A DNA stretch of 64,000 nt from Escherichia coli (GTDB lineage Bacteria > Pseudomonadota > Gammaproteobacteria > Enterobacterales > Enterobacteriaceae), in assembly GCF_003018255.1 (NCBI RefSeq), contig NZ_CP027440.1; one strand, 5' to 3'. Numbering within the stretch: position 1 is the stretch's first letter; every line of letters starts with the position of its first letter. The position numbers and the translations under genes were made by a program. The notes beneath the pieces are model-generated. The model searched no databases, was not told the origin of the DNA, and was given only the letters and a program-made list of their open reading frames with translations. Of this stretch, positions 28,828-28,913 are shown piece by piece.

Positions 28828-28846
28828 AGTGAAACGCTGTTTCGTT
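28828..28846. promoter_or_regulatory. Candidate KdgR operator (proximal) upstream of kduI
   Basis: AGTGAAACGCTGTTTCGTT matches the KdgR box pattern AATRAAAYRNYRTTTYATT with 2 mismatches. Confidence 0.45.
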
Positions 28847-28894
28847 TTCTCTATAAGGGGATGATATGCCCACGGGATAGGGTTTTCAATTAAA

Positions 28895-28913
28895 AATAAA
28901 ACAATGTTTCATT
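28895..28913. promoter_or_regulatory. Candidate KdgR operator (distal) upstream of kduI
   Basis: AATAAAACAATGTTTCATT matches the KdgR box pattern AATRAAAYRNYRTTTYATT at every position. Confidence 0.6.

What the first reader, a model, noticed from the sequence alone, without database searches (positions are those of the whole stretch)
28828..28913. Two KdgR-box-like operators upstream of kduI-kduD
AATAAAACAATGTTTCATT (28895-28913) matches the enterobacterial KdgR operator pattern at every position, and AGTGAAACGCTGTTTCGTT (28828-28846) matches with 2 mismatches. They lie 44-130 bp upstream of kduI, consistent with KdgR repression of the kduID operon.
Basis: partly seen in the sequence, partly recalled or inferred. 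Interest (0 to 1): 0.4.

Follow-up and report, generated by a model that had tools for sequence, protein, structure and literature searches.

The report
KdgR operators flanking the kduI promoter
These are two real, evolutionarily conserved repressor-binding sites that bracket the promoter of the E. coli kduI-kduD sugar-acid operon; this is an ordinary regulatory arrangement that is already in the literature.

Summary
The window is E. coli chromosome (lysR-ygeA-araE-kduD-kduI-yqeF-yqeG), with kduI-kduD on the minus strand.

- **Match to the motif.** They have 0 and 2 mismatches to AATRAAAYRNYRTTTYATT, and 1 and 4 mismatches to the published 21-mer AAATGAAACAnTGTTTCATTT. They are the only hits in 64 kb. 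Shuffles expect 0.00 hits at 0 mismatches and 0.11 at up to 2.
- **Position.** They bracket a sigma-70 promoter, TTGAAA-17-TATCAT. The distal box lies at about -59..-41 and the proximal box at about +9..+27 from the predicted start site.
- **Conservation.** In 81 Enterobacteriaceae kduI upstream regions the four half-sites, the -35 and the TA..AT of the -10 are near-invariant. The central 3 nt of each box vary freely. Box spacing is 67-68 bp in 72 of 81 sequences.
- **Published evidence.** kduD/kduI are overexpressed without kdgR. A reporter fragment spanning both boxes is induced 7-54-fold by hexuronates. The paralogue PlaR (YiaJ) also binds this region, and CRP-cAMP binds the promoter.
- **Regulator.** kdgR is intact in strain SCU-171, which is 100% identical over the 2-kb query.

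Verdict: observation confirmed, interpretation supported, already known. Direct KdgR binding to each box in E. coli remains inferred. Low interest.

The parts
28895..28913 (-). Distal KdgR box. In the kduI sense it reads AATGAAACATTGTTTTATT; the 21-mer is 28894-28914. It is centred at about -50 and ends 5 bp upstream of the -35 hexamer.
   Evidence: 0 mismatches to the 19-mer pattern and 1 to the 21-mer consensus. Half-sites TGAAAC and GTTTTA are at least 99% conserved in 81 Enterobacteriaceae sequences, while the central 3 nt reach only 53-67%.
28828..28846 (-). Proximal KdgR box. In the kduI sense it reads AACGAAACAGCGTTTCACT; the 21-mer is 28827-28847. It lies at about +9..+27 in the initially transcribed region.
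   Evidence: 2 mismatches to the 19-mer pattern and 4 to the 21-mer. Mean majority-base conservation is 0.95 for the left half CG(G/A)AAC, 0.86 for the right half and 0.44 for the central 3 nt. Some E. coli lineages carry a version with only 1 mismatch.
28884..28889 (-). -35 hexamer TTGAAA of the kduI promoter
   Evidence: Found by the promoter scan. The same TTGAAA-17-TATCAT is assigned to kduI in the RpoD-holoenzyme genomic SELEX study PMC3946193. It is 100% conserved in 81 sequences.
28861..28866 (-). -10 hexamer TATCAT. The predicted transcription start is about 28854, which is an inference and has not been mapped.
   Evidence: The TA..AT positions are conserved while the two middle positions vary.
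28937..28952 (-). CRP-like site CGTGATCGACACTGCA, centred at about -90.5.
   Evidence: The left half CGTGATC is 0.97 conserved and the CA of the right half is also conserved. The E. coli version has 4 mismatches to TGTGAN6TCACA, so a scan allowing up to 3 mismatches missed it. CRP-cAMP EMSA on the kduI promoter and Crp activation are reported in PMC8085971. That paper's predicted site could not be read.
27948..28784 (-). kduI (5-dehydro-4-deoxy-D-glucuronate isomerase), the first gene of the regulated operon
27157..27918 (-). kduD (2-dehydro-3-deoxy-D-gluconate 5-dehydrogenase), the second gene of the operon
28966..28989 (-). Terminator-like hairpin plus T-run after yqeF. It marks the upstream limit of the kduI regulatory region.

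Best explanation
The two boxes are operators for the IclR-family repressor KdgR, and they control the sigma-70 promoter of the kduI-kduD operon.

Without inducer, KdgR occupies two sites:
- The near-consensus distal dyad (about -59..-41) abuts the -35 hexamer and sits between a CRP-like site (about -90.5) and the core promoter. Binding there should block the upstream (alpha-CTD) contacts of RNA polymerase and CRP-dependent activation.
- The weaker proximal dyad (about +9..+27) should obstruct polymerase binding or promoter escape.

When galacturonate, glucuronate or pectin fragments are catabolised, 2-keto-3-deoxygluconate (KDG) accumulates, binds KdgR and releases it. The operon is then transcribed, with help from CRP-cAMP. 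The paralogue PlaR (YiaJ) probably recognises the same boxes and adds a second repressive input.

What is shown: the sequences, their position relative to the promoter, their conservation pattern, kdgR-dependent repression of kduD/kduI, and hexuronate induction of a fragment carrying both boxes.

What is inferred: direct KdgR contact with each box in E. coli, the exact transcription start, the steric mechanism at each box, and any cooperativity between the boxes.
For: - **Motif match and rarity:**
- **Control DNA:** in 147 kb of other E. coli DNA the same pattern (up to 3 mismatches) hit only twice. One hit lies 45 nt upstream of ygjV, a literature KdgR/PlaR target (PMC6127512; PMC6958661).
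- **Promoter:** TTGAAA-17-TATCAT lies between the boxes and was independently assigned in PMC3946193.
- **Phylogenetic footprint over 81 sequences:** half-sites have a mean majority-base fraction of 0.95 against 0.66 for the region as a whole. None of 100,000 random column sets reached that value. Central triplets score 0.44-0.60.
- **Spacing:** centre-to-centre distance is 67 or 68 bp in 72 of 81 sequences.
- **Variation within E. coli:** the region is present in 5,418 of 5,426 genomes. Among the eight strains aligned, the sampled SNPs fall in the central triplets or keep or improve the motif.
- **Regulator:** kdgR is intact in strain SCU-171, which is 100% identical over the 2-kb query.
- **Literature:** kduD rises in a kdgR deletion and is called a known KdgR target (PMC6958661). 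kduD/kduI are overexpressed when kdgR is lost (PMC6892915). The fragment 28752-29108 confers 7- to 54-fold induction by galacturonate or glucuronate (PMC3578941; primers mapped).
Against: - No direct binding assay of E. coli KdgR on this promoter turned up in the papers I could search.
- The proximal box deviates from the consensus in a conserved way: C instead of T before GAAAC, in both halves. It may therefore be a low-affinity site or one tuned to something else.
- PlaR binds the same spacer in vitro, and a plaR deletion also derepresses kduD. That leaves the share of repression due to KdgR at each box unresolved.
- The 67-68 bp spacing is about 6.4-6.5 helical turns, so it is not in phase. 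This does not favour a simple looped tetramer.
- The transcription start is predicted, not mapped.
Confidence: 0.85

Rival explanations
1. The boxes are chiefly operators of the paralogous IclR-family repressor PlaR (YiaJ). On this reading the kdgR effect on kduID is indirect, for example through cross-regulation between kdgR and plaR.
For: PMC6958661 reports four relevant results:
- a genomic SELEX peak for PlaR at kduI;
- gel shifts for PlaR target probes;
- a PlaR box, ATnTGAAACnnnGTTCAnTT, nearly identical to the KdgR box;
- increased kduD mRNA in a plaR deletion, with kdgR and plaR each altering the other's mRNA level.
Against: - The gel shifts used 1-5 uM PlaR on 0.5 pM probe, which suggests modest affinity.
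- Deleting kdgR raises plaR mRNA and yet derepresses kduD. That is the opposite of what a PlaR-only model predicts.
- Loss of kdgR alone gives kduD/kduI overexpression in an independent data set.
- The main text of the in vivo YiaJ ChIP-exo study highlights only the yiaJ-yiaK region; I did not see its supplementary site list.
- The distal box matches the KdgR consensus at 19 of 20 specified positions.
Confidence: 0.05
2. Only the distal box is a functional operator. The proximal dyad would then be a weak, non-functional relic, or it acts at the RNA level as a small 5'-UTR hairpin.
For: - The proximal box has 4 mismatches to the 21-mer consensus.
- It lies in the transcribed leader.
- In most genera the left half is CGGAAC and the right half GTTTCG, so the G/A difference would be tolerated as a G-U pair in RNA.
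- In E. coli a 9-bp inverted repeat brackets it.
Against: - The half-sites are conserved at 0.86-0.95 while the loop/centre triplet and the downstream leader are free to vary. There is no compensatory change to support a helix.
- The leader folds no better than shuffles (z = 0.0), and there is no Rfam match.
- The distance to the distal box is fixed at 67-68 bp.
- Some E. coli lineages carry changes that bring it closer to the KdgR consensus, to 1 mismatch.
- A downstream operator at +9..+27 is a common repressor position.
Confidence: 0.1
3. The matches are chance occurrences in an AT-rich intergenic region.
For: At up to 3 mismatches about 1.3 hits per 64 kb are expected by chance.
Against: Shuffles give 0 of 100 exact matches, and 2 of 100 reach two hits at up to 2 mismatches. 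Both hits lie within 86 bp in front of a KDG-pathway operon. They are conserved in position and half-site sequence across about 30 genera.
Confidence: 0.01

Closest known systems
KdgR boxes of the Dickeya dadantii (Erwinia chrysanthemi) and enterobacterial KdgR regulon (pel, ogl, kduI, kdgK, kdgT, kdgM and others)
   Same: The same dyad, AAATGAAACAnTGTTTCATTT. The regulator is of the same IclR family, the pathway is the same (pectin/hexuronate to KDG), and the target gene kduI is orthologous. Placement over or next to the promoter is also the same.
   Different: E. coli lacks the pectinase part of the regulon. Here two boxes flank the promoter at a fixed 67-68 bp, and the proximal one carries a conserved C-for-T deviation. 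Binding by E. coli KdgR at this promoter has not been shown directly in the papers I could read.
E. coli K-12 kduID as a KdgR target (Rodionov et al. 2000 and 2004 comparative genomics, as cited in PMC6958661; Northern blot in PMC6958661; i-modulon data in PMC6892915)
   Same: This is the same locus. The K-12 sequence differs from the window by 7 SNPs over the 135-nt stretch -175..-40 that I compared by eye. None of them is in a half-site, the -35 or the -10.
   Different: Nothing of substance differs. The window comes from a different strain, 100% identical to SCU-171. I could not open the Rodionov papers, so I could not confirm that both boxes are listed there with these positions.
PlaR (YiaJ) box
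   Same: The published consensus is nearly identical. kduI is among the PlaR targets from genomic SELEX.
   Different: It is a different regulator with different proposed effectors (L-ascorbate, galacturonate). Its strongest site is yiaJ-yiaK, not kduI.
Class I CRP-activated, repressor-gated sugar-acid promoters (upstream CRP site, then operator, then core promoter, then downstream operator)
   Same: A conserved CRP-like site upstream, a repressor site between it and the -35, and a second operator downstream of the start. CRP-cAMP binds the kduI promoter.
   Different: The CRP half-site match in E. coli is weak (4/5 + 2/5). The centre at -90.5 depends on an unmapped transcription start.

Membership tests
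KdgR operator (KdgR box) | An imperfect palindrome of about 17-21 bp matching AAATGAAACAnTGTTTCATTT (TGAAAC-N3-GTTTCA core) | tested here: met
   The distal box has 1 of 20 mismatches and the proximal box 4 of 20. Both have the hexamer-N3-hexamer geometry. The consensus is taken from PMC5559549.
KdgR operator (KdgR box) | Lies in or next to the promoter of a gene of pectin, hexuronate or KDG catabolism | tested here: met
   The boxes flank TTGAAA-17-TATCAT upstream of kduI-kduD.
KdgR operator (KdgR box) | The site is conserved upstream of orthologous genes in related genomes (the comparative-genomics criterion) | tested here: met
   In 81 Enterobacteriaceae upstream regions the half-sites are near-invariant, the centre is variable and the spacing is 67-68 bp.
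KdgR operator (KdgR box) | The cognate kdgR gene is present in the genome | tested here: met
   kdgR is not in the window. It is intact (792 nt) in strain SCU-171, which is 100% identical to the window over the 2-kb query.
KdgR operator (KdgR box) | The target is derepressed in a kdgR mutant | not testable with these tools
   The literature for K-12 meets this: PMC6958661 by Northern blot and PMC6892915 for a strain with a kdgR deletion.
KdgR operator (KdgR box) | Purified KdgR binds directly and is released by KDG | not testable with these tools
   No such assay for E. coli kduI appeared in the searchable papers. Hexuronate induction of the fragment carrying both boxes is reported.
PlaR (YiaJ) box | Match to ATnTGAAACnnnGTTCAnTT together with in vitro PlaR binding | tested here: inconclusive
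   The core is indistinguishable from the KdgR box by sequence. PlaR genomic SELEX, EMSA and Northern data exist for kduI, but the bound nucleotides were not mapped.
CRP site (class I) | TGTGA-N6-TCACA centred near -61.5, -72.5, -82.5 or -92.5 | tested here: inconclusive
   CGTGA-N6-CTGCA (28937-28952) has 4 mismatches. The left half is 0.97 conserved. The centre is about -90.5 from a predicted start. CRP EMSA is positive for the kduI promoter in PMC8085971.
Structured RNA leader | A stable or covarying secondary structure, or an Rfam match | tested here: not met
   Fold z-score is 0.0. The only Rfam hit is a plant miRNA at E = 0.99.

The most novel reading that the evidence does not exclude
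The two boxes are functionally specialised. The distal box would be a consensus KdgR operator. The proximal box carries a conserved CG(G/A)AAC deviation in both halves across about 30 genera. It would be tuned either for the paralogue PlaR or for strictly cooperative occupancy at the fixed, out-of-phase 67-68 bp distance. The kduID promoter would then integrate two IclR-family sensors (KDG and ascorbate/galacturonate) plus CRP.
Probability: 0.15. Interest if true: 0.3.

Novelty: already known. Interest (0 to 1): 0.08.

Why it matters
It matters little beyond annotation. It confirms that the first-stage reader can pick out real operators from raw sequence.

It also gives a clean map of the kduI control region in window coordinates:
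- CRP-like site, 28937-28952
- distal KdgR box, 28895-28913
- -35, 28884-28889
- -10, 28861-28866
- proximal KdgR box, 28828-28846

Three questions remain open: how repression is shared between KdgR and PlaR, why the proximal box keeps a conserved non-consensus form, and whether the fixed 67-68 bp spacing reflects cooperativity. These are of specialist interest only.

Tried and rejected
- **Rfam scan of 28600-29200.** It returned only a chance plant-miRNA hit at E = 0.99, so an RNA family is rejected.
- **RNA fold of the predicted 85-nt leader.** The z-score is 0.0, so a structured leader is rejected.
- **Strict CRP scan, up to 3 mismatches to TGTGAN6TCACA, in the intergenic region.** It found nothing. 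The CRP-like block appeared only in the phylogenetic footprint.
- **Original KdgR regulon paper, DOI 10.1099/mic.0.27041-0.** It is not held. The supplementary site table of PMC8085971 is not held either. I therefore could not check the published positions of the KdgR and CRP sites.
- **Locating kdgR in the TOP10 record by coordinate offset.** The guess landed on uxaCA-exuT instead. That locus served as control DNA and yielded the ygjV box. kdgR was then found in SCU-171.
- **The edd-eda region (L084).** It gave no hit with up to 3 mismatches, so the pattern does not recover every reported KdgR target.
- **Locus L002.** It lacks the boxes because it is a chimeric metagenome contig. It was excluded from the footprint.
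- **DNA looping by one tetramer.** I considered it, but 67-68 bp is about 6.4-6.5 helical turns and so not in phase. It stays an untested possibility.

Full report
**Where the window comes from and which genes are involved**

A 2-kb query around the finding is 100% identical to E. coli strain SCU-171. It is present at 95-100% identity in 5,418 of 5,426 complete E. coli genomes, always annotated kduD, kduI and yqeF. The ORF on the minus strand at 27948-28784 (GTG start, 278 aa) matches the KduI equivalog at 455 bits. The ORF at 27157-27918 matches KduD. The K-12 annotation shows the order lysR, ygeA, araE, kduD, kduI, yqeF, yqeG. The kduI upstream region is therefore window 28785 to about 28990, read on the minus strand. 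A terminator-like hairpin after yqeF bounds it at 28976-28989.

**Checking the observation**

The two sequences are exactly as quoted. I scored them against the palindromic pattern AATRAAAYRNYRTTTYATT. That pattern is my recollection of the degenerate Erwinia KdgR-box consensus and is not tool-verified.

- The distal box has 0 mismatches and the proximal box has 2.
- They are the only sites with up to 3 mismatches in 64 kb on either strand.
- Shuffles give 0.00 expected exact matches and 0.11 expected at up to 2 mismatches.
- Against the 21-mer AAATGAAACAnTGTTTCATTT, quoted in PMC5559549, the boxes have 1 and 4 mismatches. They are again the only sites with up to 5 mismatches in the window.
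- They lie 44-129 bp from the GTG of kduI.

As a control I scanned 147 kb of other E. coli DNA with the same pattern. It gave two hits at up to 3 mismatches. One sits 45 nt upstream of ygjV, a gene listed among KdgR regulon members and PlaR targets.

**Anatomy of the control region**

The only sigma-70-like promoter in the region is TTGAAA-17-TATCAT on the minus strand, with the -35 at 28889-28884 and the -10 at 28866-28861. The same hexamers were assigned to kduI in a genomic SELEX study with RpoD holoenzyme (PMC3946193). If transcription starts about 7 nt after the -10 (about 28854, an inference), the layout is:

- The distal box spans about -59..-41 and ends 5 bp before the -35.
- The proximal box spans about +9..+27.
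- The centre-to-centre distance is 67 bp.

**Phylogenetic footprint**

A scan of one genome per species returned 80 kduI loci from about 30 enterobacterial genera. One of them, L002, is a chimeric metagenome contig and was dropped. The findings were:

- In nearly every locus a box with 0-3 mismatches sits 112-136 nt before the start codon. In most loci a second box sits at 46-69 nt.
- In a MAFFT alignment of 81 upstream regions, the most conserved blocks are the -35 (1.00), the distal half-sites TGAAAC and GTTTTA (1.00 each), a block CGTGATC further upstream (0.97) and the proximal half-sites (0.95 and 0.86).
- The central triplets of the two boxes score only 0.60 and 0.44, against a regional mean of 0.66.
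- None of 100,000 random sets of 24 columns reached the half-site mean.
- Box spacing is 67 bp in 53 sequences and 68 bp in 19.

This pattern, with invariant half-sites, a free centre and fixed spacing around a conserved core promoter, is what operators of a dimeric helix-turn-helix repressor look like.

Within E. coli the 141-nt region is present in 5,418 of 5,426 genomes but is fairly polymorphic, at 90-100% identity. Among eight strains, the substitutions inside the boxes fall in the central triplets. The exception is a lineage (HM670, 1380) whose proximal box becomes AACGAAACAGTGTTTTATT, which has only 1 mismatch.

**Published evidence on function**

- PMC6958661 calls kduD a known KdgR target and shows increased kduD mRNA in a kdgR deletion.
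- PMC6892915 finds kduD and kduI overexpressed in a strain that lost kdgR, and predicts KdgR repression.
- PMC3578941 reports that a kduI promoter-luciferase fusion is induced 7- to 54-fold by galacturonate or glucuronate. I mapped its primers to window 28752-29108, so the fragment contains both boxes, the promoter and the CRP-like block.
- kdgR is intact in SCU-171.

I found no direct KdgR-DNA binding assay for this E. coli promoter.

**Other regulators at the same promoter**

- **PlaR (YiaJ).** This IclR-family paralogue gave a genomic SELEX peak at kduI, its target probes shifted in gels (at 1-5 uM protein), and its deletion raises kduD mRNA. Its published box is nearly the same as the KdgR box. 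Deleting kdgR raises plaR mRNA and still derepresses kduD, so KdgR acts in its own right. Co-occupancy by PlaR is nonetheless plausible.
- **CRP.** The conserved block at 28937-28952 reads CGTGA-N6-CTGCA in E. coli and CGTGA-N6-TTACA in Citrobacter. It would be centred near -90.5. PMC8085971 lists kduI as a Crp-activated gene validated by CRP-cAMP EMSA. I could not see which site that paper predicted.

**Mechanism**

The best-supported model is a classical repressor-gated, CRP-assisted catabolic promoter. KdgR at the distal box sits between the CRP site and the -35 and should block upstream polymerase contacts. KdgR at the proximal box should block polymerase binding or escape. KDG made from hexuronates releases KdgR. 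The steric details, any cooperativity (67-68 bp is not in helical phase) and the KdgR/PlaR division of labour are inferred.

An RNA-level role for the proximal dyad is unlikely. The leader fold has a z-score of 0.0, there is no Rfam family match and there is no covariation.

**Verdict**

The feature is an already known regulatory site of a model organism. The small residual novelty lies in the conserved non-consensus form of the proximal box and in possible dual control by two IclR-family repressors.

Noticed in passing
window 28937-28952 (minus strand): The block CGTGATC...CA is conserved upstream of the distal box in nearly all 81 enterobacterial kduI promoters. It looks like a CRP site centred near -90.5. 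The right half is weak in E. coli and better in Citrobacter. A paper reports CRP-cAMP binding to the kduI promoter, but I could not read the site it predicted.
   Followed up: partly
L002 1-560: A contig labelled as a Deltaproteobacteria metagenome-assembled genome carries E. coli kduI (99% identity) joined about 20 nt upstream of the start codon to unrelated DNA. It is probably a chimeric or contaminated assembly.
   Followed up: partly
L021, L025, L038, L060, L064, L066 at about 250 nt upstream of kduI: Several Enterobacter species carry a third KdgR-like box (ATCAAAACnnnGTTTCATT, 2-3 mismatches) further upstream. It may serve a divergent neighbouring gene. It is absent from E. coli.
   Followed up: no
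L006, L007, L009, L014, L017, L020, L022, L023, L033 at about 101-106 nt upstream of kduI: Kluyvera, Pseudocitrobacter and relatives have a weak extra dyad, ATTGAAAACCCATTTCATC, overlapping the -35 hexamer. The right half is lost in E. coli.
   Followed up: no
L082 19274-19292 (E. coli K-12 TOP10, between ygjV and uxaA): A KdgR-like box, TATGAAACGCCGTTTTTTA (3 mismatches), lies 45 nt upstream of ygjV. ygjV is listed in papers as a KdgR regulon member and a PlaR target. I used it as a positive control for the pattern.
   Followed up: partly
window 28818-28826 and 28842-28850: A 9-bp inverted repeat (AGAAAACGA / TCGTTTTCT on the kduI strand) brackets the proximal box in E. coli. The leader as a whole folds no better than shuffled sequence, and the 3' arm is not conserved outside Escherichia.
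   Followed up: partly
window 27875-28323 (inside kduI): A published hexuronate-inducible 'kduD promoter' reporter fragment maps here, yet it contains no KdgR-like box with up to 3 mismatches. What makes it inducible is unexplained.
   Followed up: no
L088, L089 (E. coli HM670 and 1380), proximal box: In these strains the proximal box reads AACGAAACAGTGTTTTATT. That is 1 mismatch to the pattern instead of 2, so the box is closer to consensus in one E. coli lineage.
   Followed up: partly
L084 (edd-eda region of SCU-171): No KdgR-box match with up to 3 mismatches was found near eda, although eda is a reported KdgR target. Its operator must be more degenerate than the pattern I used.
   Followed up: no
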